A DNA stretch of 64,000 nt, taken from the NCBI GenBank assembly GCA_041667545.1, contig JBAYES010000002.1, positions 5,035-69,034 on the forward strand, in the 5' to 3' direction. The DNA comes from Candidatus Omnitrophota bacterium. GTDB taxonomy: Bacteria; Omnitrophota; Gorgyraeia; Tantalellales; Tantalellaceae. The number at the start of each line of letters is the position of its first letter. The stretch's first letter is position 1. Below the pieces are notes generated by a model. It was not told where the DNA came from. It saw nothing but the letters and a program-made list of their open reading frames with translations, and did no database searches. Positions 4,945-64,000 of the stretch are shown here, piece after piece. The position numbers and the translations under genes are program-made.

Positions 4945-4955
4945 AAGGAGGGGGA

Positions 4956-8219: not shown

Positions 8220-8369
8220 GGTTCTGCAAAATAGCGTTTTCACGTCGTTGCGAGGGAGCGAAGCGACCGAAGCAATCTTATAACTTGTTATATTTATTGA
8301 GATTGCTTCGTCACTCACTTCGTTCGTTCCTCGCAAAGACGGTATAAAAGTCCATTTTGCAGAACCCTA
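8217..8369. repeat. MITE-like inverted-repeat element, family A (copy 3)
   Basis: TIRs TAGGGTTCTGCAAAAT / ATTTTGCAGAACCCTA; imperfect 150-bp palindrome with core CGTCGTTGCGAGGGAGCGAAGCGACCGAAGCAATC; flanked by 10-bp direct repeat ATTTGAGATA (8207-8216 and 8370-8379). Confidence 0.75.
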
Positions 8370-8396
8370 ATTTGAGATATATAAAGGAGGTTAAGA

Positions 8397-8765: not shown

Positions 8766-10580
8766 ATGCCGGAAAAGACAAAAAAAGAATTCCAAAGAAA
8801 AACAATAACATTTTGTAACGGGACCTCATGCATGCAGAAAGGATCCATTGATCTAAAAAATTTACTGCGGCTTGAACTCGAAAAGAGGGGTTTAACTGAG
8901 GATGATGTGCGTATAAACATATCAGGGTGTCTTGGTATGTGCGACAAGGGCCCCCTGATGATAGTCAATCCCGGGTACACGATATACGCCAATCTTAAAG
9001 AAGAGGATATCCCGATAATATTTAAAGAGCATATAGAGGGAGACAGGCCTGTCGCCGAATTTGTTACAGACGCGGACCATCTTTATAACAGGTTTTTCAG
9101 AGTGTTCGGGGATGTGGGCTTTTTCGGAAAACAGATGCGTATAGCACTTAGGAACTGCGGGATAATAGATCCGGAAAGTATAGATGATTATCTTTCTCTC
9201 AGGGGGTATGAGGCCCTGGCCAAGGTCCTTACGGAAATGTCCCCGGACGAGGTAATATCGGCGGTTACTTCTTCGGGGCTGAGGGGGCGCGGAGGTGCCG
9301 GGTTCCCAACCGGACTTAAATGGAAATTTACCAGGGAGGCTGAAGGCATAGAAAAATATGTTATTTGTAATGCCGATGAAGGCGACCCCGGAGCGTTTAT
9401 GGATAGAAGCGCCATAGAGGGGGATCCGCACACCGTTATAGAGGGCATGATAATAGGAGCTTATGCGATTGGGTCAAGCAAAGGTCTAATTTACATAAGG
9501 GCGGAATATCCCCTGGCGATAAAACGGCTGGAGTCGGCCATAAAAGCGGCAAGAGAGAACGGCATGCTGGGAAAGAACATTCTGGGTTCCGATTTTTGCT
9601 TTGATATCGAGATAAAACTCGGAGCGGGGGCCTTTGTTTGCGGGGAAGAGACAGCCCTCATACATTCAATAGAAGGCTCAAGGGGGATGCCTCGGCCAAG
9701 GCCGCCCTTTCCGTCGGTGTCCGGTCTTTTCGGCTGTCCCACTCTGATAAACAACGTTGAGACCTGGGCGAATATACCCGTGATAATAGTGGACGGGCCC
9801 GAATGGTTCAGTTCGGTGGGAACAGAGAAAAGCAAGGGTACAAAGGTTTTCGCGGTCGCGGGAAAGGTGAACAATACAGGCCTTGTGGAAGTGCCCATGG
9901 GAACAACGCTAAGGGAGATAGTTTATGATATTTGCGGAGGTATCCCTGATGATAAAAAGTTCAAAGCGGTGCAGACCGGAGGACCATCCGGAGGATGTCT
10001 TCCCGAAAAATATCTTGATACAAAAATAGATTATGAGTCACTTGCGGCCGCCGGTTCCATAATGGGCTCGGGGGGAATGATAGTGATAGACGAGGATTCG
10101 TGCATGGTAGGGATATCGAAATTTTTTCTTGAGTTCACACAAAGCGAGTCATGCGGAAAATGTACTCCCTGCCGTGAGGGGACTAAAAGGATGCTTGAGA
10201 TACTTACCAGGATCACCGAAGGGAAGGGGGTAGAGGGAGATATACAAAAGCTCGAAAGATTGGGCAACATGATAAAGAAGGCGTCTCTTTGCGGGCTGGG
10301 TCAATCGGCCCCTAATCCTGTTCTTAGCACAATAAAGAATTTCAGGGAAGAATATGAAGAACATATACGTGACAAAAGGTGCAGAGCGGGAGAGTGTAAG
10401 GACCTTCTCGTGTACGAGATAACAGATAAATGTGTGGGATGTACGGCATGTAAAAAGGTCTGCCCGACGGCCGCGATAACGGGAGACGCAAAAAAAATGC
10501 ATGTAATAGACCCCGAGAAATGTGTGAAATGCGGAAAATGTTTTGAAATATGTAAATTCGGCGCCATAACGAGATCGTGA
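8766..10580 (+). CDS. hydB: [FeFe]-hydrogenase NuoF-like flavoprotein subunit (NADH-binding, FMN, Trx-like 2Fe-2S N-domain, 2x[4Fe-4S] C-domain)
   Basis: 604 aa; FMN/NADH motif 'GLRGRGGAGFPTGLKW'; N3 cluster 'ESCGKCTPCREG'; C-terminal 'CVGCTACKKVCP' and 'CVKCGKCFEICKF' ferredoxin motifs. Confidence 0.8.
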   Translation: MPEKTKKEFQRKTITFCNGTSCMQKGSIDLKNLLRLELEKRGLTEDDVRINISGCLGMCDKGPLMIVNPGYTIYANLKEEDIPIIFKEHIEGDRPVAEFVTDADHLYNRFFRVFGDVGFFGKQMRIALRNCGIIDPESIDDYLSLRGYEALAKVLTEMSPDEVISAVTSSGLRGRGGAGFPTGLKWKFTREAEGIEKYVICNADEGDPGAFMDRSAIEGDPHTVIEGMIIGAYAIGSSKGLIYIRAEYPLAIKRLESAIKAARENGMLGKNILGSDFCFDIEIKLGAGAFVCGEETALIHSIEGSRGMPRPRPPFPSVSGLFGCPTLINNVETWANIPVIIVDGPEWFSSVGTEKSKGTKVFAVAGKVNNTGLVEVPMGTTLREIVYDICGGIPDDKKFKAVQTGGPSGGCLPEKYLDTKIDYESLAAAGSIMGSGGMIVIDEDSCMVGISKFFLEFTQSESCGKCTPCREGTKRMLEILTRITEGKGVEGDIQKLERLGNMIKKASLCGLGQSAPNPVLSTIKNFREEYEEHIRDKRCRAGECKDLLVYEITDKCVGCTACKKVCPTAAITGDAKKMHVIDPEKCVKCGKCFEICKFGAITRS

Positions 10581-14310: not shown

Positions 14311-14427
14311 GCAGAGCTCTGCGAAACGGATTTTTATCCCGTCGTTGCGAGGGAGCGAAGCGACCGAAGCAATCTCATAATTTGTTATGTATATGAAGAT
14401 GGCTGAACAAATCATATTGCGCAGAAC
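14311..14427. repeat. MITE-like element family A, variant copy 4a
   Basis: contains core CCCGTCGTTGCGAGGGAGCGAAGCGACCGAAGCAATCTCATAATTTGTTATGTATATGAAGATG; ends ...TTGCGCAGAAC. Confidence 0.55.
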
Positions 14428-14443
14428 TTTAGGAACTCTAAAG

Positions 14444-14556
14444 TAGGGTTCTGGGAAATAGCGTTTTCACGTCGTTGCGAGGGAGCGAAGCGACCGAAGC
14501 AATCTCATAATTTGTTATGTTATGTATATGAAGATGACAGAACAAATCGATATTTT
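14444..14556. repeat. MITE-like element family A, variant copy 4b (tandem to 4a)
   Basis: starts TAGGGTTCTGGGAAATAGCGTTTTCACGTCGTTGCGAGGGAGCGAAGCGACCGAAGCAATCTCATAATTTGTTATG...; right end degenerate. Confidence 0.55.
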
Positions 14557-19577: not shown

Positions 19578-20279
19578 ATGCCGGGTTCAACGGAAAAAGA
19601 ATATCTTGCTACACTTACTAAGATAAGCAAGGCCATTACGAGCGATCTTTATCTGGAGGACATACTTAAGCTCCTGGTAAATTTGACGGCCGGGGTAATG
19701 GCGGCCGAAATATGCGCCATATGGCTTATAGACGAAGACACTAAGGAACTTAAAATAAGAGCTACGCAGGCAATGAGTCAGGAGTACCTTAAGGAAAGAT
19801 CCCTCAAAGTAGGTGAAGGGATAGTGGGGCTTGTGGCCGAGGAAAAAAAACCCATAATAATTTCCAATGTTCTTAAGGATGAGAGATATAAAGAGAAGAA
19901 ACTGGCTAAAAAAGAGAACCTTGTGTCCATGTTAAGTGTGCCTATGATGGTCAAAGAAAAGGTGGCAGGTGTGATCAATGTTTATACTACCGAGACATAC
20001 AAATTTTCTAAAAGCGATGTGAACCTTCTCAGCACGGTGGCAAATCAGGCGGCGGCGGCAATACAGAACACGGAGCTTTTGGTGAAGACAAAGGTAATAC
20101 AGGAAGAACTTGAGACGCGGAAAAGGGTGGAAAAGGCCAAAGGGATACTGATGAGGGAACAGGGTATATCCGAAGAAGAGGCCTATAGTCTTATCAGGAA
20201 ATCCAGCATGAACAAGCGTATGTCCATGAAAGAGATAGCGGAAGCGATAATCTTATCTCAGGAAATACGTAAGTGGTAG
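19578..20279 (+). CDS. GAF-ANTAR RNA-binding antitermination regulator
   Basis: 233 aa; N-terminal GAF; C-terminal ANTAR 'ELETRKRVEKAKGILMREQGISEEEAYSLIRKSSMNKRMSMKEIAEAII'. Confidence 0.7.
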   Translation: MPGSTEKEYLATLTKISKAITSDLYLEDILKLLVNLTAGVMAAEICAIWLIDEDTKELKIRATQAMSQEYLKERSLKVGEGIVGLVAEEKKPIIISNVLKDERYKEKKLAKKENLVSMLSVPMMVKEKVAGVINVYTTETYKFSKSDVNLLSTVANQAAAAIQNTELLVKTKVIQEELETRKRVEKAKGILMREQGISEEEAYSLIRKSSMNKRMSMKEIAEAIILSQEIRKW

Positions 20280-21405: not shown

Positions 21406-21427
21406 GGACCGGATCTAACGATAAGAG

Positions 21428-21580
21428 TAGAGTTCTGCAAAATAGCTGTTTCACGTCGTTGCGAGGGAGCGAAGCGACCAAAGCAATCCTATATCTTATT
21501 GTATTTATTGAGATTGTTTTGTCACTCACTTTGTTCGTTCCTCGTAAAGACGGAATAAAAGTCTATTTTGCAGAACCCTA
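21428..21580. repeat. MITE-like inverted-repeat element, family A (copy 5)
   Basis: TIRs TAGAGTTCTGCAAAAT / ATTTTGCAGAACCCTA; flanked by perfect 10-bp direct repeat ACGATAAGAG (21418-27 and 21581-90). Confidence 0.75.
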
Positions 21581-21606
21581 ACGATAAGAGAACAAAGGAG
21601 GTCAAA

Positions 21607-22944: not shown

Positions 22945-23118
22945 GATTGGCGCCGCGTTTTACATTGGCGTCGAGAACGAAAAGTAATAAGTAAAAGTAG
23001 AAAGAAGAAAAGCGGAAGATATATGAGGAGAACGAGAAATGACGTTTTGAAGTCGTCCTGAGGGTCCTGCCAAACCTGAGAGGCAGCTAAGGGAGGGGCC
23101 GATGGCTAAGGAAAAACT

Positions 23119-23316
23119 TAGGGTTATGCAAAATAGCGTTTTCACGTCGTTGCGAGGGAGCGAAGCGACCGAAGCAATCTTGTAACTTGTTATATTTATT
23201 GAGATTGCTTCGGCCTTCAACCATGCTCAGGACGAAATCCTGAGCGAAGCGAAGGGCTTCGTTACTCACTTCGTTCCTCGCAAAGACGTTATAAAAGTCC
23301 ATTTTGAAGAACTCTA
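23119..23316. repeat. MITE-like inverted-repeat element, family A (long variant, copy 6)
   Basis: TAGGGTTATGCAAAAT...CCATTTTGAAGAACTCTA; flanking direct repeat AGGAAAAACT (23109-18 and 23318-27, 1-nt offset). Confidence 0.65.
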
Positions 23317-23343
23317 AAGGAAAAACTAAAAAAGGAGGTTGAG

Positions 23344-24696: not shown

Positions 24697-24748
24697 ATCC
24701 CGGGGGTTTAGTGTATAAGTGAAAGAGGGTAATGCGATGAAGGATATG

Positions 24749-24900
24749 AGAGTTCTGCAAAATAGTTGGTTCACGTCGTTGCGAGGGAGCGAAGCGACCG
24801 AAGCAATCCTATATCTTATTGTATTTATTGAGATTGCTTCGTCACTCACTTTGTTCGTTCCTCGCAAAGACGGAATAAAAGTCTATTTCTCATAGCCCTA
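24749..24900. repeat. MITE-like element family A (copy 7, degenerate right TIR)
   Basis: AGAGTTCTGCAAAATAGTTGGTTCACGTCGTTGCGAGGGAGCGAAGCGACCGAAGCAATC...GTCTATTTCTCATAGCCCTA. Confidence 0.6.
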
Positions 24901-24927
24901 TAAAAGGACATAAATAAGGAGGGGAAA

Positions 24928-33550: not shown

Positions 33551-33725
33551 GGGACGGTTCTCATTTTGAACCTACACCTGTCCCTATGTTTTGGGGGACA
33601 GGTGTAGGTTCAAGGAAAGGACAGGTGTAGGTTCAAGGAAAGGACAGGTGTAGGTTCAAGTTGGGGACAGGTGTAGGTTCAAATCGAGGGACGGGTGTAG
33701 GATTAGATTCAGAACCGTCCCTGAA
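33551..33725 (+). repeat. tandem direct-repeat array (5 x about 23 bp GGACAGGTGTAGGTTCAAGGAAA-like) with terminal conserved hairpin, bounded by inverted repeat GGGACGGTTC...GAACCGTCCC; copy 2
   Basis: seen directly; left arm AACCTACACCTGTCCC (33569-84) is exact reverse complement of the repeat-unit core; final unit GGGACGGGTGTAGGATTAGATTCAGAACCGTCCCTGAA about 90% identical to 4905-4944; ends 10 nt before gltB ATG. Confidence 0.8.
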
Positions 33726-33735
33726 CCGGAGTGAT

Positions 33736-36700
33736 ATGAGAGGACATTTTCCTGAAAAACAAGGTTTGTATGATCCGGCTTTTGAGAAAGATAGCTGCGG
33801 GGTGGGGTTTGTCTGCGATATGAAGGGCAGAAAGTCCCATGATGTTATCAGTAAGGGGCTGGAAGTGCTTGAAAGGATGGGCCACAGGGGCGCGGTAGGG
33901 GCCGACCCGAGAACCGGTGACGGCGCCGGCATTCTTATTCAAATACCACACGGGTTTTTTGTAAAGAGGTTACGGGAGCAAGGACTGTCTCTCCCCGACC
34001 CCGGAGAATATGGCGCGGGGCTTATTTTTATGCCGCGGGATCCGGATTGCAGAAAAAGATGTGAGACCATTCTGCAGGACGAGATACTTAGGGAAGGGCA
34101 GATCTTTCTTGGGTGGAGAGATGTTCCCGTGGATGAATCCATGATAGGGGAAGTTGCGAAGAGCAAGCAGCCGGTAATTAAACAGATCTTTATAGGCAGG
34201 GGAGGATCTTGCCGCGACCAGGGATCTTTTGAACGTAAACTTTATGTCATAAGGAAAGTGGCGGAAAAAAAGGTGAGTTCTTCCGACATCCCCGGAAAAG
34301 ATTTCTTCTATATAACGGATCTTTCCTCGAAAAAGATAACTTATAAAGGGCTGCTCATGCCGGAACAAGTTCCGGAATATTTTCCGGATCTTAAGGATGA
34401 GGACACGGTAAGCGCTCTTGCTCTTGTACATTCCAGGTATAGTACCAACACTTTTCCCACCTGGGATCTTGCCCAGCCATTCAGGTATCTTGCCCATAAC
34501 GGGGAGATAAATACACTTAGAGGTAACATAAACTGGTTTCGTTCGGGAGAGAGGCTTCTGGCTTCTTCCCTTTTTGGGAACGATATCGCCAAAATAAAAC
34601 CTGTAATAGTAGAAGGCGGAAGCGATTCGGCATCCATAGATAATGTGCTGGAACTCCTGGTGCTGGGGGGAAGGTCTTTGCCGCATGCTTTGATGATGCT
34701 TGTTCCGGAAGCGTGGGAACATAATGCCGGGATGAAAAAAGAGATCCGGGATTTTTATGCCTATCACGCTTGTATTATGGAGCCATGGGATGGACCGGCG
34801 GCCATAGCCTTTACAGACGGGACAGATATCGGCGCTCTTCTCGACAGGAACGGTCTAAGGCCCGCCAGATATCTTATAACCCGAGATGATCTTGTTGTGA
34901 TGTCTTCAGAAGTGGGAGTTCTTGACCTGGATCCTGCCGAAATAAAATATTCGAGCAGGCTTGAGCCCGGAAAGATATTGTTCATAGATACTGCCAGGCA
35001 AAGGGTAGTTAGCGATGATGAGATAAAAAATGAGCTTTCCGCGAAGAAACCTTATGGCGAATGGCTGAATGAAAACCTTGTGGGATTAGAGGATCTGCCT
35101 TCGGCCGTGGTCACGTCAAAGAGAACATCTGATGTTTTTAAAATGCTCAGATGTTTCGGATATTCCAGGGAAGATCTTAATGCTATCCTCAAGCCCATGG
35201 CCGAGGAGGGCAAGGAACCTGTGGGGTCGATGGGGAATGATTCTCCGCATGCTTTTCTTTCAAAAAGGCCGCAGCTTGTTTTCGATCATTTCAAACAACT
35301 TTTCGCGCAGGTGACCAACCCGGCCATAGATCCCATAAGAGAAGACATTGTCATGAGTATGGAAACATTTGCCGGAACAGGAAGTAATATCCTGACGGAA
35401 AGTCCGGATCATTGCCGTAAGCTGAGTATCCCGGACCCCATATTGACCAATAGCGGCCTTGACAAAATAAAATATGTTAACACCGAAGGGTTTAAGACTA
35501 AGACCGTTCATATGTTCTTTGACCCCGTGCGTGAAGGTGATTTTGTAAAAGCTCTGGAGCGAATATGTTATGAGGGAGCTTATGCCGTTGAGGAGGGATA
35601 TAACTTTCTTGTGCTGAGCGACAGGGGCGTAAACTCGGAGAAAGCCGTGCTGCCTTCTCTTCTTGCGTTAAGCGCTCTTCACCAGCATCTTGTCTCAATG
35701 TCCATACGTACACAGATAAGCATAATTGTGGAAAGCGCCGAACCCAGAGAAGTAAATCACTTTGCTCTTCTTCTGGCTTATGGAGCTGACGCGATCAATC
35801 CCTATCTTGCTTATGAAGCCATAGAAGAAATGACCCGGAGCGGTAAGTTATCTTGCGGTAAGGAGAAAGCGGTAGAGAATTATCGTAAGGCGGTGGGGGG
35901 AGGTATACTAAAAATACTTTCAAAGATGGGAATATCTACTCTGCGCAGTTACAAGGGCGCGCAGATATTCGAGGCATTAGGGCTCGGGAAAGAGTTGGTG
36001 GATGCCTATTTCACAAATACCGTATCCCGTATAGGGGGAGTAGGCCTGGAGGGAATAAGAAAAGACGCGGTCTTACGGCACGAAGCCGCTTTTTCCGGGT
36101 TTGCGGACGGAGGCTACACGGCTTTAGATACCGGAGGGATATATCAGTGGAAACGCGACGGTGAGTTCCATTTGTGGAATCCCGAAAGCATAGCTCTTTT
36201 GCAGGATTCCGTAAGAAAAGGCAGCTACGATGTATACAAAAAATTTGCCGCTCTCATAGACGATCAGTCTGAAAATCCCACAACTATAAGAAGTCTTTTC
36301 AGTTTTGTGGAAAGAAGATCGATACCCATAGAAGAAGTGGAGCCTGTGGAAAATATACTCAGAAGATTTGCCACAGGAGCCATGAGTTACGGATCCATAA
36401 GCCGGAACGCCCATGAGACCATAGCTATCGCCATGAACCGCATAAAGGGGAAGTCAAATACAGGAGAAGGGGGAGAGGATCCCGCGAGGTTCGTTCCTCT
36501 TCCTAACGGGGATTCCCGGAAAAGCGCGATAAAACAGGTTGCCTCCGGAAGGTTCGGAGTTACGGCTAATTATCTGATAAACGCCGACGAGATACAGATA
36601 AAAATATCGCAGGGAGCGAAGCCGGGAGAGGGAGGCCAGCTTCCCGGGCATAAAGTAAGCGCTATTATAGCGAGAACAAGGTATACCACGCAGGGAGTTA

Positions 36701-38265
36701 CGCTTATTTCGCCGCCCCCTCATCACGACATCTATTCCATCGAAGATCTCGCCCAGCTCATATTCGATCTTAAAAGCGTTAATCCAAAGGCCAGGGTGAG
36801 TGTAAAACTTGTTTCAGAAGTGGGAGTGGGGACCATAGCGGCAGGCGTGGCAAAAGGGCACGCGGATATGATACTTATATCGGGCGCCGATGGGGGAACG
36901 GGCGCTTCGCCGCGTACATCAATACGTCATGCCGGCCTCCCGTGGGAACTTGGCCTTTCCGAAACTCACCAGACCCTTGCGCTTAATAATTTAAGGGACA
37001 GGGTGAAACTTCAGACAGACGGCCAGATGAGAACCGGCAGGGACGTGGCCTTGGCCGCCATTCTTGGAGCGGAAGAATTCGGGTTCTGCACGGCGGTTCT
37101 TATAACACTTGGCTGTGTGATGCTTAGGCATTGCCATCTCAACAACTGTTCTGTGGGTGTGGCCACGCAGGATGAACTTTTGGAAAAAAGGTTCACGGGC
37201 AGGCCGGAATATGTGGTTAATTATATGAATTTTGTAGCAATGCATCTAAGGGAAATAATGGCGTCTCTGGGGGTCAGGAAACTGGACGACATGGTGGGAA
37301 TGACGGACCTTATCGGGATAAATAAAGGGATCCTGCCGGAAAAAGCGGAAAATACCGATCTTTCCGGAATACTTTACCGCCCTGATGTGACTGTGGACTT
37401 TTCAGGCTCCCGCAAAACAGAAGTTGAGAATGATAACAGAAACAGGCTGGATCAAGAGATCATCAGGGTTTCGGAAGACGCGATAGATAGAGGCACTCCC
37501 GTGTCCGCGCAGTATCACATACGTAATTATGACAGGGCGGTCGGAGCGCGTTTAAGCGGCCGGGTGTGCGCGGATAGGGGAGAGCAAGGGTTGTCCGAAG
37601 ATACTATAAAGTGCCGTTTTGACGGATTCGCCGGACAGAGTTTCGGGGCTTTTCTGGCGAGAGGGATAACTTTCGAGCTTGCGGGCATGGCAAACGATTA
37701 TGTGGGTAAGAGCCTTTCCGGAGGGAAGATCATCATCTTTCCCGGCAAGGGCGCGACATATGTTCCGGAAGATAATGTGATAATCGGGAACACCTGTTTT
37801 TACGGGGCTGTGGCGGGAGAGGCGTATATAAGAGGCAGGGCCGGAGAAAGATTCTGCGTGAGGAATTCAGGGCTTTACGCGGTTGTTGAGGGAGTGGGAG
37901 ACCATGGCTGCGAGTACATGACGGGAGGAAGAGTAGTTGTTCTTGGAAAGACCGGAAGGAATTTCGCGGCCGGGATGTCCGGAGGGATAGCCTACATATA
38001 CGATAAAGATCACGATTTTTCCGAAAAATGCAACAGAAGCATGGTAGAGATAGAGACCCTTACCGATGAAGACAGGAACCTCGTATCCGAACTTGTGGGA
38101 AATCATCATCGAAACACGCTTAGCAAAGTCGCCGAAAGAATACTTGAGAATTTTAGTGAAGAGATAACAAGATTCATCAAAGTTATGCCCATAGAATATA
38201 AGAGAGTTCTGGGAGCCAAAGAGATGGAAGAAAAAATGGGTCTCGGGGAGGTGTCGGATGGGTGA
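33736..38265 (+). CDS. gltB: glutamate synthase large subunit
   Basis: about 1509 aa; N-terminal amidotransferase 'CGVGFV' nucleophile, FMN/3Fe-4S central domains, C-terminal GXXG repeats. Confidence 0.9.
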   Translation: MRGHFPEKQGLYDPAFEKDSCGVGFVCDMKGRKSHDVISKGLEVLERMGHRGAVGADPRTGDGAGILIQIPHGFFVKRLREQGLSLPDPGEYGAGLIFMPRDPDCRKRCETILQDEILREGQIFLGWRDVPVDESMIGEVAKSKQPVIKQIFIGRGGSCRDQGSFERKLYVIRKVAEKKVSSSDIPGKDFFYITDLSSKKITYKGLLMPEQVPEYFPDLKDEDTVSALALVHSRYSTNTFPTWDLAQPFRYLAHNGEINTLRGNINWFRSGERLLASSLFGNDIAKIKPVIVEGGSDSASIDNVLELLVLGGRSLPHALMMLVPEAWEHNAGMKKEIRDFYAYHACIMEPWDGPAAIAFTDGTDIGALLDRNGLRPARYLITRDDLVVMSSEVGVLDLDPAEIKYSSRLEPGKILFIDTARQRVVSDDEIKNELSAKKPYGEWLNENLVGLEDLPSAVVTSKRTSDVFKMLRCFGYSREDLNAILKPMAEEGKEPVGSMGNDSPHAFLSKRPQLVFDHFKQLFAQVTNPAIDPIREDIVMSMETFAGTGSNILTESPDHCRKLSIPDPILTNSGLDKIKYVNTEGFKTKTVHMFFDPVREGDFVKALERICYEGAYAVEEGYNFLVLSDRGVNSEKAVLPSLLALSALHQHLVSMSIRTQISIIVESAEPREVNHFALLLAYGADAINPYLAYEAIEEMTRSGKLSCGKEKAVENYRKAVGGGILKILSKMGISTLRSYKGAQIFEALGLGKELVDAYFTNTVSRIGGVGLEGIRKDAVLRHEAAFSGFADGGYTALDTGGIYQWKRDGEFHLWNPESIALLQDSVRKGSYDVYKKFAALIDDQSENPTTIRSLFSFVERRSIPIEEVEPVENILRRFATGAMSYGSISRNAHETIAIAMNRIKGKSNTGEGGEDPARFVPLPNGDSRKSAIKQVASGRFGVTANYLINADEIQIKISQGAKPGEGGQLPGHKVSAIIARTRYTTQGVTLISPPPHHDIYSIEDLAQLIFDLKSVNPKARVSVKLVSEVGVGTIAAGVAKGHADMILISGADGGTGASPRTSIRHAGLPWELGLSETHQTLALNNLRDRVKLQTDGQMRTGRDVALAAILGAEEFGFCTAVLITLGCVMLRHCHLNNCSVGVATQDELLEKRFTGRPEYVVNYMNFVAMHLREIMASLGVRKLDDMVGMTDLIGINKGILPEKAENTDLSGILYRPDVTVDFSGSRKTEVENDNRNRLDQEIIRVSEDAIDRGTPVSAQYHIRNYDRAVGARLSGRVCADRGEQGLSEDTIKCRFDGFAGQSFGAFLARGITFELAGMANDYVGKSLSGGKIIIFPGKGATYVPEDNVIIGNTCFYGAVAGEAYIRGRAGERFCVRNSGLYAVVEGVGDHGCEYMTGGRVVVLGKTGRNFAAGMSGGIAYIYDKDHDFSEKCNRSMVEIETLTDEDRNLVSELVGNHHRNTLSKVAERILENFSEEITRFIKVMPIEYKRVLGAKEMEEKMGLGEVSDG

Positions 38266-47073: not shown

Positions 47074-47084
47074 TGTAAACGTAC

Positions 47085-47232
47085 ATCCGGGGAGGGCGTA
47101 GGACGCTCTGAGAGTTCCGCCGGCAAGCGGATTACCCGTATGACCTGAACTGTCCCGATGTTCCGGGGCAGGCCGAGACGACTGTAAGTACGTTTCGGAC
47201 TGGGTAATGCCAGCGTAGGGAGAGTGGGAAAA
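47085..47232 (+). ncRNA. TPP (thiamine pyrophosphate) riboswitch, THI-box
   Basis: CUGAGA...UACCCGUAUGACCUGA...GGGUAAUGCCAGCGUAGGGA conserved THI-element segments; followed by terminator; precedes thiE-thiS-thiG-thiH-thiF. Confidence 0.75.
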
Positions 47233-47237
47233 ACTTT

Positions 47238-47272
47238 TAAAACCTCATGCGCTTGCATGAGGTTTTTTGTTG
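47238..47272 (+). terminator. riboswitch expression-platform terminator
   Basis: CCTCATGC-gctt-GCATGAGG followed by TTTTTTGTT. Confidence 0.7.
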
Positions 47273-51794: not shown

Positions 51795-51990
51795 GGGGGG
51801 GGGAATAAGTACTTACTCCCAGCAGGAGGGCTTGTGTATTTTTTCGCTGGTTTTACCCTGGATTTTGCAGAGGCAAAATCCACCCGAAGGGCCGTGAAAC
51901 GGGGGATCCCAAAATTTTTCAAAATTTTGGGGAACATACCTCTGGCATCGGACGGGGACACAAAAGTTGGCTCTAAGGCAGTTGATATAT

Positions 51991-52103
51991 GCGGACGAGC
52001 GAGCGGGCATGGTCCCCTATGGCACGGGCCATAGGGGGAGCGAGCGAGTCCGTCGAGCGCAAGCGTCCCTCGCAGGGAATATCGGACCCTTGCGCTCAGG
52101 GGT
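51991..52103. repeat. family B repeat, short copy
   Basis: GACGAGCGAGCGGGCATGGTCC...GGGAGCGAGCGAGTCCGTCGAGCGCAAGCGTCCCTCGCAGGGAA shared with 53520-53660. Confidence 0.6.
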
Positions 52104-52177
52104 GCTTTTTGTGTGGATAAAGTCTTTATTTTTGGAAGTCATTAAGCTATTTGTTGTTGGAGAGGAATAGATCAAAG

Positions 52178-53239
52178 ATGGATATTGAGCGTATTTTTGA
52201 CAAAATAGACAAAGATTCCGGGCTTACGGCCGGCGAGGTGGAGTTTCTGCTTACGGCCGACGGAGATGAAGTTGAAGCGCTTTACGGTAAAGCCGACAGT
52301 GTGCGGCGGGATAACATGGGAGATGATGTATATCTCAGAGGAATAGTGGAGTTCTCTAATTTCTGCGTTAAAAATTGTTTCTATTGCGGGATATATTCCT
52401 CTAATAAGAAGGTTAAGAGATATCGCATTCCGGATGAAGAGATACTGGATGTCTGCCGTGAGATGGAAAAAAGAGGCCAGACCACGGTTGTTCTGCAGTC
52501 GGGAGAAGACCCCTTCTACACGAAAGAAAAAATGGGAAAACTGATACGGACTATAAAAAGTGAAACAACTCTTGCCGTTACGCTGTCCGTGGGAGAAAGG
52601 GACAGAGAAACGTACGGTTACTGGAAAGATAGCGGTATGGATAGATACCTTTTACGGTTCGAGACATCGGACGAGACATTGTTCAAGGCCTGTCACCCCG
52701 ATGCCGATCTTGCCGGGAGGTTAACATGTCTCAAAGATCTCAAAGAACTTGGAGTTCAGACAGGTTCGGGTTTTCTTATAGGCCTGCCTGATGCGACCAT
52801 CGCGCAGCTTGCCCGCGATATCCTTTTTTGCACGGAACTTGAGCTCGACATGATCGGCGTCGGGCCATTCATCCCTCATGGGGATACAAGATTTAATTCT
52901 CTTCACAACACTTTCGGTAAAGATATATTTTTCAAGACGGTCGCGATACTGCGGCTTTTGAATAAAACGGCTCATATTCCGGCGACAACGGCTTTTGACG
53001 CAGTGGATCCCGAAGGAAGGAACCTTCTTCTTTTAAGGGGATGTAATGTTTTTATGCCGAACTCAACACCGGTAAAATACAGGGAACATTACCTGCTTTA
53101 TCCGGGTAAACCTTGTGTCGACGAGAGCGCCGAAGACTGTTCCGCCTGTGTTCTTGGAAGGATATCCGCGCTCGGTAGAAAGATAGGCAAAGGCCCGGGC
53201 CATTCGATCCGCGCCGGTCACAGTTCGTCTCTCGAATAG
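52178..53239 (+). CDS. hydE: [FeFe]-hydrogenase H-cluster maturase HydE (radical SAM)
   Basis: about 353 aa; near-collinear match to T. maritima HydE from memory: 'IVEFSNFCVKNCFYCG', 'YRIP', 'VLQSGEDP', 'AVTLSVGE', 'YLLRFET', 'DMIGVGPFIPH', 'IPATTAF', 'YPGKPCV', 'LGRK'. Confidence 0.8.
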   Translation: MDIERIFDKIDKDSGLTAGEVEFLLTADGDEVEALYGKADSVRRDNMGDDVYLRGIVEFSNFCVKNCFYCGIYSSNKKVKRYRIPDEEILDVCREMEKRGQTTVVLQSGEDPFYTKEKMGKLIRTIKSETTLAVTLSVGERDRETYGYWKDSGMDRYLLRFETSDETLFKACHPDADLAGRLTCLKDLKELGVQTGSGFLIGLPDATIAQLARDILFCTELELDMIGVGPFIPHGDTRFNSLHNTFGKDIFFKTVAILRLLNKTAHIPATTAFDAVDPEGRNLLLLRGCNVFMPNSTPVKYREHYLLYPGKPCVDESAEDCSACVLGRISALGRKIGKGPGHSIRAGHSSSLE

Positions 53240-53271
53240 ACAGGGTACTTAATATTCCAGGTGCCGCTATT

Positions 53272-53675
53272 CGCCGCAAGGACCTGGGCTTCCCTGCGAA
53301 ACGACACGATGGGTCTGATATGTCCCTTCCGGGGACGTTCGCCCGGCTCCAGCGGCCGGGCTCACTCCACGTTGAGCTGTTTTACCCCTCGCTCTTTCTC
53401 TGTAAGCTTGCTAAAGGTTCGCTCGGGGACCGATCTAAAACAAGCTCACCGAGGCCCCGTCCGGGACATATCAGCCCCATCGTTCGCCGCAAGGGCCTGG
53501 GATTCCCGGAGAGGGCGTTGGACGAGCGAGCGGGCATGGTCCACGCTGTGTCCTGAGCGAAACCGAGCGAAGGGAGGGCACGGGCCCTCGTGGGAGCGAG
53601 CGAGTCCGTCGAGCGCAGATTTTCTCGCTGGGAAAATCAAGCGTCCCTCGCAGGGAAGCCCAGGTCCTTGCGGCG
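53272..53675. repeat. family B composite nested inverted-repeat element
   Basis: perfect 28-bp TIRs CGCCGCAAGGACCTGGGCTTCCCTGCGA (53272-99) / TCGCAGGGAAGCCCAGGTCCTTGCGGCG (53648-75); inner 15-16-bp inverted repeat GGGTCTGATATGTCCC (53311-26) / GGGACATATCAGCCCC (53463-78); internal duplication of the left TIR region at 53482-53515. Confidence 0.7.
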
Positions 53676-53779
53676 GGGTGGGTTACAAAAATTTGTTCGT
53701 AGGGATGTTTGTGTTATAATGTTTTTAGGGGAAAGTGAATTTTAGGGTCACTGTTCCGGAAATGAAAGGTCGTTAGAAT

Positions 53780-54985
53780 ATGGAAAAGAAGAACATATAT
53801 ATGGATTACAATGCCACAACCCCTCTTCATCCCGAGGTGAAGAAGGCAATGGCGGAAGCTATGGATGTGTACGGCAACCCGTCGAGTCTTCACTGGTTCG
53901 GGAGGAAGGCCAAGGGGATGATAGAATCGGCTCGCAGAAAGGTGGCCGACCTTATAGGCGCATCGCATGATGAGATAATTTTTGTAGGAAGCGGTTCCGA
54001 AGCGAACAATACGGTGCTTTCCATCTTTTCCTGCCATCCTAAAGGATGTGACGGATGCAGGCAGGGCCGTAATGAGATAGTTACTACGTCCATAGAACAC
54101 CCATGCATAATGGAAACGTCTAAATGTTTGGAGATAAAGGGCACTCCCGTTAAATATCTCAGGGTAGACTCGTACGGTAAAGTTGATATGAACGATCTTG
54201 CCGGTTCCATAGGCAACAGGACGGGCCTTGTTTCCGTGATGATGGCCAACAATGAAATAGGCACTTTGCAGGATATAAAGGCAATAGCCGAAGTGGCGCA
54301 TGACAGGGGAGCGCTTTTTCATACGGATGCTGTCCAGGCCGTAGGTAAGATACCCGTTAATGTAAAGGAACTTGACGTGGATTTTCTGACCATATCAGCG
54401 CATAAGATATACGGCCCTAAGGGGGTCGGAGCGCTTTATGTAAGAAAAGGGGTTCCTTTCTGCCCGATGATCCGCGGCGGGCATCAAGAAATGGGAAGAA
54501 GAGCGGGAACAGAGAACACACTGGGAATACTGGGCCTTGGCGCGGCTTCCGATCTGAGAATAAGGGAGATGGCCGAAGAGGAGAAACGGCTTTTAAAACT
54601 GAAAGCCATAATAAGGAAAGGGATAGAAAATAATGTGCCGGATGTTGTTTTCAATGGTCACCCGGAAGACTGTCTTCCGGGTACTTTAAATGTTTCTTTT
54701 GTGGGAGCGGAAGGCGAGTCGGTGCTTCTGGCTCTGGATCTTGAGGGGATATCCGTTTCTACCGGGTCGGCTTGCGCGTCCGGAGCGCTTGATCCGTCGC
54801 ATGTCCTTCTGGCAACGGGGCTTGATGTGGCGCTTGCGCATGACTCTATAAGGGTCAGCCTCGGCAGGGAAAATACAGAGGAAGATGCTGAAAAGTTCGT
54901 GGGCACTATTGCTTCTTGTGTGGGAAGAATAAGGGACATTTCGACAGCGTACGGAAAAAAAGGTCAAAATAAGCTGGAAACTTAA
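53780..54985 (+). CDS. nifS: cysteine desulfurase (NifS/IscS)
   Basis: 401 aa; 'MDYNATTPLHPEV', PLP-Lys 'SAHKIYGPKGVGALY', 'GSACASG' active-site Cys. Confidence 0.85.
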   Translation: MEKKNIYMDYNATTPLHPEVKKAMAEAMDVYGNPSSLHWFGRKAKGMIESARRKVADLIGASHDEIIFVGSGSEANNTVLSIFSCHPKGCDGCRQGRNEIVTTSIEHPCIMETSKCLEIKGTPVKYLRVDSYGKVDMNDLAGSIGNRTGLVSVMMANNEIGTLQDIKAIAEVAHDRGALFHTDAVQAVGKIPVNVKELDVDFLTISAHKIYGPKGVGALYVRKGVPFCPMIRGGHQEMGRRAGTENTLGILGLGAASDLRIREMAEEEKRLLKLKAIIRKGIENNVPDVVFNGHPEDCLPGTLNVSFVGAEGESVLLALDLEGISVSTGSACASGALDPSHVLLATGLDVALAHDSIRVSLGRENTEEDAEKFVGTIASCVGRIRDISTAYGKKGQNKLET

Positions 54986-56325: not shown

Positions 56326-56373
56326 AGCAACGGATACCGGAAAAGATGAAGATAATACTTAGTGGATGATTTT

Positions 56374-56587
56374 TAGAGTTCTGCAGAATGGACTTTTATA
56401 ACGTTTTTACGAGGAATGAACGAAGTGAGTGACGAAGCCCTTCGTATCGTGATAAATGCTATGGCTCAGGATTTAGGCAGAGTTAGTAAATAGCCGAAGC
56501 AATTTCAATAAAGATGACAAGTTATAAGATTGCTTCGGGCGCTTCGCTCCCTCGCAACGACGTAAAAACGATATTTCGCAGAACCCA
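56374..56587. repeat. MITE-like element family A (long variant, copy 8)
   Basis: TAGAGTTCTGCAGAAT...ATATTTCGCAGAACCCA; flanking direct repeat GGATGATTTT / GGATGGTTTT (1 mismatch). Confidence 0.7.
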
Positions 56588-57311: not shown

Positions 57312-58472
57312 ATGAGACAGGTAAAGTTAAAGGAAGACATATACTGGGTAGGGGGTATAGACTGGGATCTCAGGAATTTTCATGGGTATTCAACTGAAAG
57401 AGGGTCTACATACAACTCGTATCTCATTATTGACGAAAAAAAAGTTCTTGTAGATACCGTGAAAAGCCATTTTTTCGCGGAGATGGCGGAGAGAGCGGGA
57501 AAGATAGCGGACCTTTCGGAAATAGATTATGTTGTTTCAAGCCACACAGAGATGGACCATTCCGGGAGCCTTCCCGAGATAATGAAGCTTTGTCCCGGTG
57601 CTACGATCATAACTTCGCCTAACGGAGAGAAAGCGCTCAAAAAACATTACCGCCACAGTTGGAAAACTAAGGTCGTTAATACCGGAGACAAGGTAAACAT
57701 AGGGAAGAGAGACCTTCAGTTCATTCTTATGCCTATGGTACATTGGCCCGATTCGATGGCGACTTATATTGAGAAAGACAAACTTCTTTTCCCCAACGAC
57801 GCTTTTGGACAGCACATCGCGTCTACGGAAAGATTCGATTCGGAAATGGAATGGGATGTTATAAGGAGTGAGGCGGCGAAGTATTATGCGAATATTGTAA
57901 TGCCTTACGGGGCTCAGGTAACTAAGGCCCTGGATGCTGTGTCAAAGCTTGATGTCGATACGATAGCTCCAAGCCATGGAATAATATGGCGGGAGCATAT
58001 AGGTAAAATAATAGAGCTGTACAGGGAATGGTCTGCAAATATAACACAGAAAAAAGCGGTTATAGTTTACGATACAATGTGGCATTCCACAGAGAAGATC
58101 GCCGGGGCCGTGTTCCGAGCTTTTGATGAGAGCGGCATAAAAGCGATTCCCATGAATCTCGCTTCAAATCATATATCGGATATTATCACGGAAATACTTA
58201 CGGCAAGATATATATGCGTAGGGTCTTCTACTCTGAATAACGGTCTATTGCCGCAGGCCGCGGCTTTTTTAACTTACATGAAGGGACTCGCGCCGAAGAA
58301 CAGGAAGGCTCTTGCTTTCGGATCTTACGGCTGGGGAGGGCAGAGTATCGATCAGATAGACGAGGTACTTAAATCCTGCGGGTTTGAGACATTTGAAAAA
58401 ATAAAGATACAATGGGTGCCGTCCGGGGAAGAACTTGCAGATATAAAACAGCGTGTAACTTCGTATATATAG
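57312..58472 (+). CDS. fprA: flavodiiron protein (A-type flavoprotein; rubredoxin:oxygen/NO oxidoreductase)
   Basis: 386 aa; metallo-beta-lactamase di-iron motif 'SHTEMDHSG', C-terminal flavodoxin domain. Confidence 0.8.
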   Translation: MRQVKLKEDIYWVGGIDWDLRNFHGYSTERGSTYNSYLIIDEKKVLVDTVKSHFFAEMAERAGKIADLSEIDYVVSSHTEMDHSGSLPEIMKLCPGATIITSPNGEKALKKHYRHSWKTKVVNTGDKVNIGKRDLQFILMPMVHWPDSMATYIEKDKLLFPNDAFGQHIASTERFDSEMEWDVIRSEAAKYYANIVMPYGAQVTKALDAVSKLDVDTIAPSHGIIWREHIGKIIELYREWSANITQKKAVIVYDTMWHSTEKIAGAVFRAFDESGIKAIPMNLASNHISDIITEILTARYICVGSSTLNNGLLPQAAAFLTYMKGLAPKNRKALAFGSYGWGGQSIDQIDEVLKSCGFETFEKIKIQWVPSGEELADIKQRVTSYI

Positions 58473-58684
58473 AGTTCTGCGAAATGAATTTTTATACCGT
58501 CTTTGCGAGGAACGAACGAAGTGAGTGACGAAGCCCTTCGTATCGTGATAAAGGCTATGACTCAGGATTCCGCCAGACGTAATAAAAGGGCGGAGCAATC
58601 TTAAAATATATAATAAGTTATGAGGTTGCTTCGGTCGCTTCGCTCCCTCGCAATGACGTGGAATCGCTCTTTCGCAGAACCCTA
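58470..58684. repeat. MITE-like element family A (long variant, copy 9)
   Basis: TAGAGTTCTGCGAAAT...CTTTCGCAGAACCCTA; flanking CGTATAT(A/C) partial direct repeat. Confidence 0.7.
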
Positions 58685-58709
58685 CGTATATCAAAAAAGG
58701 AGGGGAATT

Positions 58710-63909: not shown

Positions 63910-63930
63910 GTTGTTTGGGTTTCATCATAA

Positions 63931-64000
63931 TAGGGTTCTGAAAAATGTCGTTTTCACGTCGTTGCGAGGGAGCGAAGCGACCTAAGTCCTTCGTCCCGCG
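63931..64000. repeat. MITE-like element family A (copy 10, truncated by window end)
   Basis: TAGGGTTCTGAAAAATGTCGTTTTCACGTCGTTGCGAGGGAGCGAAGCGACC... Confidence 0.6.

What the first reader, a model, noticed from the sequence alone, without database searches (positions are those of the whole stretch)
53272..53675. Second repeat family (B): 404-bp nested inverted-repeat element with perfect 28-bp TIRs between hydE and nifS, plus a related 110-bp copy at 51991
Outer TIRs CGCCGCAAGGACCTGGGCTTCCCTGCGA / reverse complement are perfect. Inside there is an inner element bounded by GGGTCTGATATGTCCC / GGGACATATCAGCCCC, a duplicated copy of the left-TIR region, and a GC-rich module (GACGAGCGAGCGGGCATGGTCC … GGGAGCGAGCGAGTCCGTCGAGCGCAAGCGTCCCTCGCAGGGAA). 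That module recurs at 51991-52103 between the PP-loop gene and hydE. The pattern looks like nested MITE insertions unrelated to family A. The 5' end of the inner element on the reverse strand (GGGGCUGAUAUGUCCCGGACGGGG) superficially resembles a tmRNA 5' end.
Basis: seen in the sequence. Interest (0 to 1): 0.5.

Follow-up and report, generated by a model that had tools for sequence, protein, structure and literature searches.

The report
Composite structured palindromic intergenic repeat
The 404-bp stretch between hydE and nifS is real: it holds two head-to-head copies of an undescribed hairpin-forming intergenic repeat shared by Omnitrophota and one Planctomycetia genome, and it is neither a tmRNA, nor a catalogued RNA, nor a classical MITE.

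Summary
The 28-nt inverted repeat is perfect, and the inner inverted repeat, the duplicated left arm and the related copy at 51985-52100 are all present. The same sequence appears in independent assemblies.

ARAGORN and Rfam find nothing here, although Rfam's TPP riboswitch control worked.

The basic unit is about 150-190 nt. It has a long closing stem, a GGAC/GUCC helix that continues through alternating tandem G.A and G-C pairs to a variable tip, and a 7-bp hairpin with a (U)CGCNGG loop. Across 8 copies 13 of 25 pairs covary. These copies come from the window, a relative with 85% HydE identity, and one Planctomycetia MAG with at least 5 dispersed copies.

Copies lie between unrelated housekeeping genes in either orientation. 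They have no target-site duplications and no shared termini.

The inner 185 nt is probably a diverged inverted unit. It sits between two copies of the left arm.

The "empty" allele in a relative is a deletion between those arm copies, not a pre-insertion site.

The inner unit is 95-98% conserved and the core about 96%, against 67% at hydE third codon positions.

Best reading: a new REP/BIME-like structured repeat family. The nesting is confirmed, but the classical-MITE reading is not supported.

The parts
53272..53299 (+). Outer-left arm. This is an extra copy of the unit's left arm, and here it is the perfect 28-nt complement of the right arm.
   Evidence: I1 100% complementary; D3 direct repeat with 53483-53512, 87%. 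The relatives L012 and L048 carry the same duplication with their own host-specific arm sequence.
53300..53484 (-). Inner 185-nt unit. It is a long hairpin with closing stem 53306-53334 / 53455-53483. Read on the minus strand it has the same three-way topology as the core, including a 7-bp/7-nt-loop hairpin GCCCGGC-CGCUGGA-GCCGGGC at 53341-53361.
   Evidence: The core model gives a weak hit at 53329-53461(-): 17.5 bits, E 5e-4 in 2 kb, though this is at noise level in 0.83 Mb of unrelated DNA. It is 97.8% and 95.1% identical to the copies in L012 and L048. The minus strand folds 10-15 kcal/mol better than the plus strand in all three orthologues. Substitutions that keep pairing through G.U do so on the minus strand.
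53485..53512 (+). Native left arm of the basic unit. It pairs with the right arm at 87% and keeps the conserved GGAGA internal-loop side.
   Evidence: I2. It is orthologous to the single arm of L010. Six compensated double changes occur in the 23-bp stem between the two species.
53509..53650 (+). Conserved core of the family-B unit. Components: P1 proximal GGGCG/CGUCCC; P2 GGAC(53520-53523)/GUCC with the GAGCGAGCG (53524-53532) / GAGCGAGCGA (53594-53603) tandem-G.A helix; hairpin 1 tip 53575-53593; linker GUCGAGCGCA 53608-53617; hairpin 2 53618-53638 (GAUUUUC-UCGCUGG-GAAAAUC).
   Evidence: Covariance model R1 scores 97.3 bits, E 2e-23.
53546..53574 (+). Lineage-specific 29-nt insertion in the 5' strand of hairpin 1 (CTGTGTCCTGAGCGAAACCGAGCGAAGGG).
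   Evidence: It is absent from L010 and L012, where hairpin 1 is a perfect 10-bp stem with loop ACGG. It shares TCCTGAGCGAA with a family-A module at 23238.
53648..53675 (+). Right arm of the unit. It can pair with either left-arm copy.
   Evidence: I1, I2. The MFE fold uses the outer copy.
51985..52100 (+). Truncated second unit. It has the core without hairpin 2 and without a left arm. Its 3' part forms its own hairpin at 52055-52097, presenting CUCGCAGGG in the loop, and is followed by a T-run (terminator-like, 52086-52116).
   Evidence: R1 scores 51.2 bits, E 4e-11. This spacer is 383 nt in the window but only 22-78 nt, with no element, in relatives L010, L050, L015 and L016.

Best explanation
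**What it is.** The 404-bp feature is a composite of two head-to-head members of an undescribed family of structured palindromic intergenic repeats, called family B here.

**The basic unit.** It is about 150-190 nt, and one strand folds into a three-way junction with these parts:
- a 21-34-bp closing stem formed by the arms;
- a helix that starts GGAC/GUCC, continues through alternating tandem G.A and G-C pairs, and ends in a variable tip;
- a 7-bp hairpin that displays a (U)CGCNGG loop.

**How the window's version is built.** A basic unit occupies the hydE 3' end, where a more distant relative has an ordinary terminator hairpin. A second, diverged unit in the opposite orientation lies between two copies of the first unit's left arm. 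Either arm copy can pair with the single right arm.

**How it most likely works (inferred).** The family behaves like REP/REPIN/BIME-type elements.
- It is copied to new intergenic sites on evolutionary time scales. Recognition is by hairpin shape rather than terminal sequence, and the trans-acting enzyme is unidentified.
- Resident copies are retained because the folded single strand does something useful at gene boundaries. The most likely role is a 3'-end barrier or processing structure in the hydE transcript, upstream of nifS's own promoter.

**Shown:** the anatomy, covariation, dispersal, gain and loss between relatives, strong conservation at the orthologous site, and absence from the libraries of known RNA families.

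**Inferred:** the mode of copying and the role in transcripts.
For: **Structure**
- 95.9% of cells are paired and 13 of 25 pairs changed on both sides across 8 copies. No shuffle out of 500 reached this, and pairing collapses when partners are slid (6-sequence version).
- The copy L010 1266-1377(-) covaries inside the G.A helix: GC->CG and CG->UA. Both L010 copies replace the first tandem G.A by Watson-Crick GA/UC.
- The outer stems of the orthologous window and L010 copies differ by 6 compensated double changes in 23 bp.
- The purine-rich strand folds better than its complement in 11 of 11 units.

**Dispersal and turnover**
- At least 5 copies in Planctomycetia MAG CAYJVR01 lie between unrelated housekeeping genes. 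Three of them share 246-320 nt at 92-95%.
- Lineage-specific copies are found at the PP-loop/hydE spacer in the window only, and at the gdh/thiE spacer in L010 only.
- L049 has a plain terminator at the hydE-nifS site.
- Metagenome contigs break inside the element (L002, L013, L014).

**Head-to-head pairing**
- Weak opposite-strand model hits lie directly beside bona fide units in the window, in L004/L007 and in L006.
- A hairpin of the same 7-bp/7-nt geometry occurs in the inner unit.

**Retention**
- The inner unit is 97.8% and 95.1% identical between lineages and the core about 96%, against 67.5% at hydE third codon positions and 61% in the adjacent spacer.
- The nifS promoter-like TTGTTC-N16-TGTGTTATAAT lies downstream of the element and is conserved.
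Against: - No enzyme is identified. There is no transposase, RAYT or integrase among the window's genes or next to the five MAG copies.
- No recent insertion was caught. The only within-population polymorphism is a deletion.
- Copy number in the source genome is unknown. Only 64 kb was available, and the source species was not among the genome-collection matches.
- Conservation of the inner unit about 15 times tighter than synonymous sites is unusual for a selfish repeat. It fits a dedicated functional RNA better.
- No T-run follows the composite hairpin, so intrinsic termination is not evident.
- Homology of the inner unit to the core rests on a 17.5-bit hit. That score is matched by chance hits in 0.83 Mb of unrelated DNA.
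Confidence: 0.5

Rival explanations
1. It is a family of functional structured RNAs, either a trans-acting small RNA or a protein-binding RNA. The inner unit (minus strand) and the core (plus strand) would each be RNA genes or domains kept by purifying selection, and dispersal would be secondary.
For: - Covariation occurs in every helix.
- Loops are conserved: (U)CGCNGG and ACGG.
- The tandem-G.A helix is exchangeable with Watson-Crick pairs.
- One strand folds consistently better than the other.
- The inner unit is 95-98% identical against 67% at synonymous positions.
- Substitutions that keep G.U pairing do so only on the minus strand.
- The core is almost identical between two phyla.
Against: - No sigma-70-like promoter lies in front of either unit on its sense strand.
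- Units are about equally often co-oriented with and opposed to flanking genes.
- Units are gained and lost between close relatives.
- One relative (L048) has lost the whole core and right arm.
- There is no match in Rfam 15.
Confidence: 0.25
2. These are classical nested MITEs. Cut-and-paste elements defined by terminal inverted repeats would have inserted into one another, each mobilised by a transposase that binds the TIRs.
For: - The inverted-repeat architecture is nested.
- The units have no coding capacity and are 130-190 nt long.
- Copies are dispersed.
- The inner unit is flanked by a 28-29-nt direct duplication of host sequence.
Against: - Termini are not conserved between copies, and no target-site duplication flanks any unit.
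- The duplication around the inner unit coincides exactly with a structural module, the whole left arm. It is far longer than usual target duplications.
- The two arm copies differ by 3-7 positions while the inner unit differs by only 2-5% between lineages.
- The 'empty' allele L010 carries a chimeric arm inside flanks that are 100% identical. It is therefore a deletion product.
- No IS with matching ends is seen.
Confidence: 0.1
3. The palindromes have no selected function. Arm-to-arm templated repair (gene conversion within hairpins or cruciforms) keeps the arms complementary and mimics covariation. The region is a hotspot of structural mutation.
For: - In the window the outer-left arm has become the exact complement of the right arm. 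This includes three positions where every other arm keeps GGAGA.
- Arm copies within a lineage resemble each other more than their orthologues do.
- There are frequent deletions and insertions at the locus.
Against: - This does not explain the unpaired but invariant core segments: GGGCA, GUCGAGCGCA and the loop CGCNGG.
- It does not explain the G.A positions that stay G.A or change to Watson-Crick together.
- It does not explain the near identity of the core across two phyla.
Confidence: 0.1
4. It is a known RNA gene (tmRNA or another catalogued family), or a protein-coding gene: the 152-codon ORF at 53261-53719 that gene callers annotate.
For: - The 5' end of the inner unit on the minus strand reads GGGGCUGAUAUGUCCCGGACGGGG, which resembles a tmRNA 5' end.
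- The ORF is called as a gene in two assemblies.
Against: - ARAGORN finds no tmRNA or tRNA in the window.
- Rfam finds nothing at E<=10 on the 424-nt region, while its TPP control works.
- The terminal stem is a 21-29-bp inverted repeat, not an acceptor/T-arm.
- The open frame through the core falls in frames 0, 1 and 2 in different copies.
- The 29-nt indel shifts the frame between orthologues.
- The ORF has no Pfam match. Only one homologue, 99% identical, exists among 5.8 billion clusters.
Confidence: 0.02

Closest known systems
REP / REPIN / BIME elements (repetitive extragenic palindromes, REP doublets forming hairpins, bacterial interspersed mosaic elements), including the GTAG- and CGTC-tagged superfamilies of Di Nocera et al. 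2013 (PMC3733652)
   Same: - Both are intergenic, mostly just after coding regions, and occur in both orientations.
- Both are imperfect palindromes whose pairing, rather than sequence, is kept.
- Both often occur as head-to-head pairs that fold into larger hairpins, and are sometimes embedded in longer palindromes (PMC3733652).
- Neither has a target-site duplication.
- Both are mosaics with other repeats.
- A CGTC/CGTT tetranucleotide sits just 5' of the GGAC helix.
   Different: - Units are 130-190 nt rather than 20-40 nt.
- They fold as a three-way junction with a conserved 100-nt core and a tandem-G.A helix.
- The CGTC is partly paired, not a free terminal tag.
- No RAYT gene was seen.
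- Copy number is known only as at least 5 in one MAG.
BOX elements of Streptococcus pneumoniae and ERIC/Correia-type MITEs (comparison from my own knowledge)
   Same: - All are modular, 100-300 nt, non-coding and strongly folding.
- All are inserted at gene boundaries and co-transcribed with neighbours.
- Modules are present or absent in different combinations.
   Different: - There is no sequence similarity.
- Family B lacks conserved terminal inverted repeats and TA or other short duplications.
- Its conserved part is internal.
Folded single-strand recombination substrates: IS200/IS605 ends and PATEs, and integron attC sites (comparison from my own knowledge)
   Same: - Recognition would be of hairpin shape, with conserved unpaired bases and strand asymmetry.
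- Stem sequence varies freely.
- There is no target duplication.
   Different: - There are no attC R'/R'' boxes (GTTRRRY/RYYYAAC).
- No integrase, TnpA or TnpB gene is nearby.
- The units are much larger and branched.
tmRNA
   Same: Only the first 9 nt (GGGGCUGAU) and a GGACGGGG motif on the minus strand of the inner unit resemble it.
   Different: There is no tRNA-like domain, no tag reading frame, no ARAGORN call and no Rfam hit.

Membership tests
Classical MITE | Terminal inverted repeats whose sequence is shared by the copies of a family (the transposase binding sites) | tested here: not met
   Termini differ: CGCCGCAAGG (window, L010a), ATACAAGGGG (L010b), GGCGTTCGGC (L005), GGGGGGTGTC (L006), GTCCCCCGCG (L004). 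The conserved part is the internal core.
Classical MITE | Short target-site duplication flanking each copy | tested here: not met
   There is no adjacent direct repeat of 2-8 nt at any of 7 unit boundaries. The inner unit is flanked by a 28-29-nt duplicated arm, which is atypical. The two copies have diverged by 3-7 positions.
Classical MITE | Several dispersed non-coding copies of 70-300 bp | tested here: met
   There are at least 5 copies in MAG CAYJVR01, 2 in L010 and 2 (plus the inner unit) in the window. The open frames are not conserved.
Classical MITE | A parent IS with matching ends in the same genome | not testable with these tools
   Only 64 kb of the source MAG and 8-kb pieces of the other MAG are held. 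No transposase is present in them.
REP / REPIN | Unit is a 20-40-nt stem-loop | tested here: not met
   Units are 127-191 nt with a branched fold.
REP / REPIN | Unpaired GTAG or CGTC tag at one end (PMC3733652) | tested here: inconclusive
   CGTC (Planctomycetia copies) or CGTT (Omnitrophota copies and L006) lies at the P1/P2 junction, with its CG paired in P1. It is not at the end of the element.
REP / REPIN | Head-to-head dimers that form a larger hairpin | tested here: inconclusive
   Opposite-strand weak model hits of 17.5-22.3 bits lie directly next to strong hits in three independent composites. Scores of 16-17 bits also occur by chance in 0.83 Mb.
REP / REPIN | A RAYT gene flanked by the repeats | not testable with these tools
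   The whole genomes are not available here, and none is seen in the held DNA.
tmRNA | tRNA-like acceptor/T-arm domain plus tag reading frame | tested here: not met
   ARAGORN finds 0 genes in the window. There is no Rfam hit at E<=10.
Any Rfam 15 family | Covariance-model score at or near the family threshold | tested here: not met
   There are 0 matches for the window, the element and 9 related loci. The positive control is TPP at 66.8 bits in L015 and 40.6 bits in the window.
Integron attC | R''/R' boxes RYYYAAC...GTTRRRY at the foot of the hairpin, in cassette arrays near intI | tested here: not met
   Arm ends are CGCCGCAAGG/CCTTGCGGCG and the like. Neighbours are housekeeping genes, with no integrase.
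Cis-regulatory RNA of Fe-S / hydrogenase maturation genes | Consistent association with, and orientation relative to, functionally related genes | tested here: not met
   The MAG copies flank acs, a GDSL lipase gene, trpF, an M48 peptidase gene, cca, cstA, POR and an O-methyltransferase gene. Orientation is mixed.

The most novel reading that the evidence does not exclude
Family B could be a new class of structured nucleic acid: a three-way junction with a tandem-G.A helix and a (U)CGCNGG display loop. It would be kept by host-level purifying selection and shared between Omnitrophota and Planctomycetota. One possibility is a functional non-coding RNA. Another is the recognition or guide module of a still unknown mobile or recombination system that reads hairpin shape. 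The two alternative left arms would act as a structural switch.
Probability: 0.2. Interest if true: 0.7.

Novelty: new variant of a known kind. Interest (0 to 1): 0.4.

Why it matters
If the reading is right, uncultivated PVC bacteria carry a large, branched relative of REP/BIME-type repeats. Its fold is defined well enough to be searched for with a covariance model. One orthologous copy evolves about 15 times more slowly than synonymous sites.

That gives a concrete handle on two open questions. The first is how structured intergenic repeats without a dedicated transposase are copied. The second is whether hosts retain them for a function at gene boundaries.

There are also practical consequences:
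- The element breaks metagenome assemblies.
- It is annotated as a 152-aa hypothetical protein, and that annotation should be removed.

Tried and rejected
**Searches that found nothing useful**
1. **Metagenome scan.** GAGCGAGCNNGTCCGTCGAGC gave 31 loci, all chance matches inside GC-rich coding DNA.
2. **Viral contigs.** Five pattern scans gave 0-68 loci each. None contained a unit when searched with model R1: the best was 16.8 bits, E 0.35.
3. **Plasmid and phage BLAST** of the 404 bp gave no match.
4. **Pseudo-ORF searches.** Translations of the pseudo-ORFs were used to look for other copies among 5.8 billion proteins. Only one near-identical hit (P0121) turned up, and nothing was found for the MAG copy. 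The contig of P0121 is not on record.
5. **Literature search** for the repeat sequences found 0 papers. A search for Omnitrophota plus palindromic repeats found nothing relevant.

**Ideas rejected**
6. **A riboswitch or leader of Fe-S genes,** suggested because both window copies precede hydE and nifS on the sense strand. The MAG copies flank unrelated genes in both orientations, and nifS has its own promoter downstream of the element.
7. **L010 as a pre-insertion empty site.** Flanks are 100% identical over 5.1 kb. L010's arm is a chimera of the two L012 arm copies.
8. **tmRNA, 6S, ribozymes and other Rfam families**.
9. **Coding potential**.

Full report
**1. Observation**

- The arms 53272-53299 and 53648-53675 are 28 nt and perfectly complementary.
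- An inner inverted repeat lies at 53306-53334 / 53455-53483 (29 nt, 86% complementary).
- The left arm recurs as a direct repeat at 53483-53512 (87% identical).
- The GC-rich part shares exact blocks of 23, 26 and 18 nt with 51993-52094.
- No chance match to the arm is expected in the window.
- The region folds far better than shuffles: -236.8 kcal/mol, z = -9.6.

It is not an assembly artefact.
- An independent ENA contig is 99.995% identical over 20.2 kb including the element.
- A Logan contig is 100% identical from 53566 onward.

The window comes from a MAG labelled Candidatus Omnitrophota bacterium. All neighbouring genes are on the plus strand: thiE-thiS, thiG, thiH, thiF, a PP-loop ThiI-like gene, hydE (52178-53239), nifS (53780-54985), nifU and a ferredoxin-like gene.

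**2. Known RNAs are excluded**

- ARAGORN finds no tRNA or tmRNA in the window.
- Rfam 15 finds nothing at gathering thresholds.
- Rfam also finds nothing relevant at E<=10 on 2 kb, and nothing at all on the 424-nt element alone.
- The tool works. It finds the TPP riboswitch in a relative at 66.8 bits, and in the window at 40.6 bits, where a P3 insertion keeps it under threshold.

The tmRNA-like 5' end therefore belongs to a plain 21-29-bp inverted repeat.

**3. Related copies elsewhere**

A 20-mer from the module was scanned against one genome per GTDB species. It matched five places in one Planctomycetia MAG (CAYJVR01), plus two chance hits.

The five copies share a core with the window: GGACGA(C)GCGAGCGGGCA - variable hairpin 1 - GAGCGAGCGAGUCCGUCGAGCGCA - hairpin 2 - AAGCG(A/U)CCC. 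This core is enclosed by long stems that differ in sequence between copies but stay paired.

In that MAG the repeat is layered.
- Two copies share 320 nt at 94.7%.
- A third shares 246 nt.
- The other two share only the 108-130-nt core.

All five lie between unrelated housekeeping genes: acs, a GDSL lipase gene, trpF, an M48 peptidase gene, cca, cstA, POR, a CBS-domain gene and an O-methyltransferase gene. Two are antisense to both neighbours.

Further searches found nothing. The metagenome word scan gave only chance hits. Viral contigs, plasmids and phages hold none.

**4. The fold**

A six-sequence alignment supports five helices: 96% of cells paired and 8 pairs changed on both sides, with no shuffle out of 500 reaching these values.

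A covariance model built from it (R1) recovers all known copies at 97-118 bits and the truncated copy at 51985-52084 at 51 bits. It also finds a new full copy in a relative, L010 1266-1377(-), at 82.5 bits.

That new copy is informative.
- It changes GC->CG and CG->UA in the two short Watson-Crick steps that separate the purine-purine steps of the GAGCGAGCG / GAGCGAGCGA region.
- Both L010 copies replace the first G.A/A.G step by GA/UC.
- The two direct repeats of GAGCGAGCG therefore pair antiparallel, as a helix of alternating tandem G.A and G-C pairs.

With eight copies, 13 of 25 pairs have changes on both sides and 95.9% of cells are paired. Sliding the partners by one column drops pairing to 38-48%. 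That alignment was fitted to the model, which favours the structure somewhat.

Other structural points:
- Hairpin 2 always has a 7-bp stem and a 7-nt loop, UCGCUGG, UCGCCGG, UCGCAGG or ACGCCGG.
- The purine-rich strand folds better than its complement in 11 of 11 units, by 3-20 kcal/mol. A G-rich composition contributes to that.

**5. The same locus in relatives**

Four versions of the hydE-nifS spacer were recovered.
- **L010, L011, L014 (HydE 85% identical).** The hydE-nifS spacer holds one simple unit: left arm, core, right arm. Its outer stem differs from the window's by six compensated double changes in 23 bp. Hairpin 2 also carries a compensated change.
- **L012.** This contig is from the same population, with flanks 100% identical over 5.1 kb. 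It carries 213 extra nt: the same 184-nt inner unit plus a second copy of the 29-nt left arm. The two arm copies in L012 differ at three positions. The single arm of L010 is a chimera of them, so L010 is a deletion by recombination between the direct repeats, not an empty target.
- **L048 (HydE 92%).** It has both arm copies and the inner unit but has lost the core and right arm.
- **L049 (79%).** It has no element, only a plain terminator hairpin with a T-run in front of the conserved nifS promoter.

The insertion of the inner unit therefore predates the split of three lineages.

Conservation over that time is strong.

| Segment compared with the window | Identity |
|---|---|
| Inner unit, L012 | 97.8% |
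| Inner unit, L048 | 95.1% |
| Core | about 96% |
| hydE third codon positions | 67.5% |
| Spacer upstream of the element | 61% |

The arms are only about 71% identical but remain paired.

The window's outer-left arm is special. It alone reads CCCTGCGA instead of the CCCGGAGA found in every other arm copy, which makes it the exact complement of the right arm.

**6. The inner unit**

On the minus strand the inner unit has the same layout as the core:
- a closing stem;
- a long hairpin containing CCCC-GAGCG...GAGCGA-GGGG;
- a linker;
- a 7-bp/7-nt-loop hairpin, GCCCGGC-CGCUGGA-GCCGGGC;
- then GAACGUCCCC.

R1 aligns it end to end at 17.5 bits (E 5e-4 within 2 kb). Similar weak opposite-strand hits lie directly beside strong units in L004/L007 and L006. 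Scores of 16-17 bits also arise by chance in 0.83 Mb of unrelated DNA. The homology is therefore suggestive, supported mainly by position and by the shared hairpin geometry.

Among the three orthologues, four substitutions keep pairs through G.U or G-C on the minus strand. Three create G.A, A.G or U.C in the closing stem, and there are no double changes.

**7. Gain and loss**

- The copy at 51985-52100 sits in a 383-nt PP-loop/hydE spacer. That spacer is 22-78 nt, with no element, in L010, L050, L015 and L016.
- The L010 copy between gdh and thiE is absent from the window, which has a simple terminator-like hairpin there.
- A more distant Omnitrophota relative (L051/L052) has both hydE-flanking spacers filled by a different palindromic family.
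- No unit has a target-site duplication, and termini are not conserved between copies.
- No transposase-like gene occurs in the window or next to the MAG copies.

**8. Interpretation**

The element is best described as a composite of two head-to-head members of a new family of large, branched palindromic intergenic repeats.

In biology it resembles REP/REPIN/BIME-type elements. These are intergenic, lie in both orientations and keep pairing rather than sequence. They form head-to-head dimers, are embedded in longer palindromes and have no target duplication (Di Nocera et al. 2013, PMC3733652).

It fails the formal definitions of the nearest classes.
- **REP:** the size and the free terminal tag do not fit.
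- **MITE:** shared terminal repeats and target duplications are absent.

Copying by a shape-reading enzyme, and a role of the folded transcript at the hydE 3' end, are inferences.

The strongest rival is a dedicated functional RNA. The very slow evolution of the inner unit and core, and the conserved unpaired positions, favour that reading.

The ORF 53261-53719 that gene callers annotate is not a gene.
- Its frame through the core differs between copies.
- A 29-nt indel shifts it between orthologues.
- It has no family match and only one near-identical database homologue.

**9. Verdict**

The nested repeat is real and it is not a tmRNA. It is not a classical MITE, and the 'TIR' is a duplicated, homogenised arm.
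- Novelty: a new variant of a known kind.
- Interest is moderate at 0.4. The 0.7 given for the novel case would apply only if the units prove to be functional RNAs or substrates of an unknown recombination system.

Noticed in passing
window 47078-47239 (+): A TPP riboswitch lies upstream of thiE. It scores only 40.6 bits, below Rfam's 54.3 threshold, because of an insertion of about 55 nt in P3. It is therefore invisible in a gathering-threshold scan. L010 has the same insertion, while L015 has the plain form at 66.8 bits.
   Followed up: partly
window 4816-4950 and 33596-33731 (+), with an inverted copy at about 33551-33585: Four to five tandem copies of a unit of about 23 nt (GGGACAGGTGTAGGTTCAA) are followed by a hairpin GGGACGG...CCGTCCC. 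They lie immediately upstream of a Shine-Dalgarno sequence and start codon at two loci, the second before the 1534-aa ORF at 33661-38265. A GAF-ANTAR regulator gene lies at 19578-20279. This is possibly a shared leader or protein-binding array.
   Followed up: no
window 8216-8391, 14313-14548, 21427-21602, 23118-23338, 24747-24922, 5426-5553, 871-985, 56369-56586, 58465-58692, 63930-63986: Family A is at least 10 nested palindromes. The outer layer is TAGGGTTCTGCAAAAT...ATTTTGCAGAACCCTA and the inner layer is CGTCGTTGCGAGGGAGCGAAGCGACCGAAGCAATC...GATTGCTTCG...CCTCGCAACGACG. Some copies carry an extra nested module. The CGTC start suggests a link to the CGTC-tagged REP superfamily (PMC3733652).
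   Followed up: partly
window 53551-53561 and 23238-23248: The 11-mer TCCTGAGCGAA, followed by GCGAAGGG, is shared between the 29-nt insertion in family B hairpin 1 and a nested module of a family A copy. It hints that short modules are exchanged between the repeat families.
   Followed up: partly
L010 about 1490-1640 and L015 about 780-930: A conserved block of about 130 nt (GGGCATATTCTGCGCGCTTC...CTAGTGCTCGAATAC) lies between gdh and the TPP riboswitch in two relatives. It is absent from the window and has no Rfam match. It may be a structured RNA or another repeat.
   Followed up: no
L051 660-955 and 1995-2278 (same in L052): In a more distant Omnitrophota relative (HydE 75%), both spacers flanking hydE are filled by CATTGTCATCCTGAGG...GAAGGATC palindromes. 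The same gene boundaries attract different repeat families in different lineages.
   Followed up: no
window 53261-53719 (+) and 51834-52034 (+): Gene callers annotate ORFs of 152 and 66 codons across the repeats (L001 genes 9482-9940 and 8055-8255; JGI protein P0121). These are spurious open frames in purine-rich, T-poor DNA.
   Followed up: yes
window 53693-53720 (+): A promoter-like TTGTTC-N16-TGTGTTATAAT for nifS lies just downstream of the element and is conserved in L010, L012, L048 and L049. Its reverse complement (TTCACT-N15-TATAAC) could drive antisense transcription through the element.
   Followed up: no
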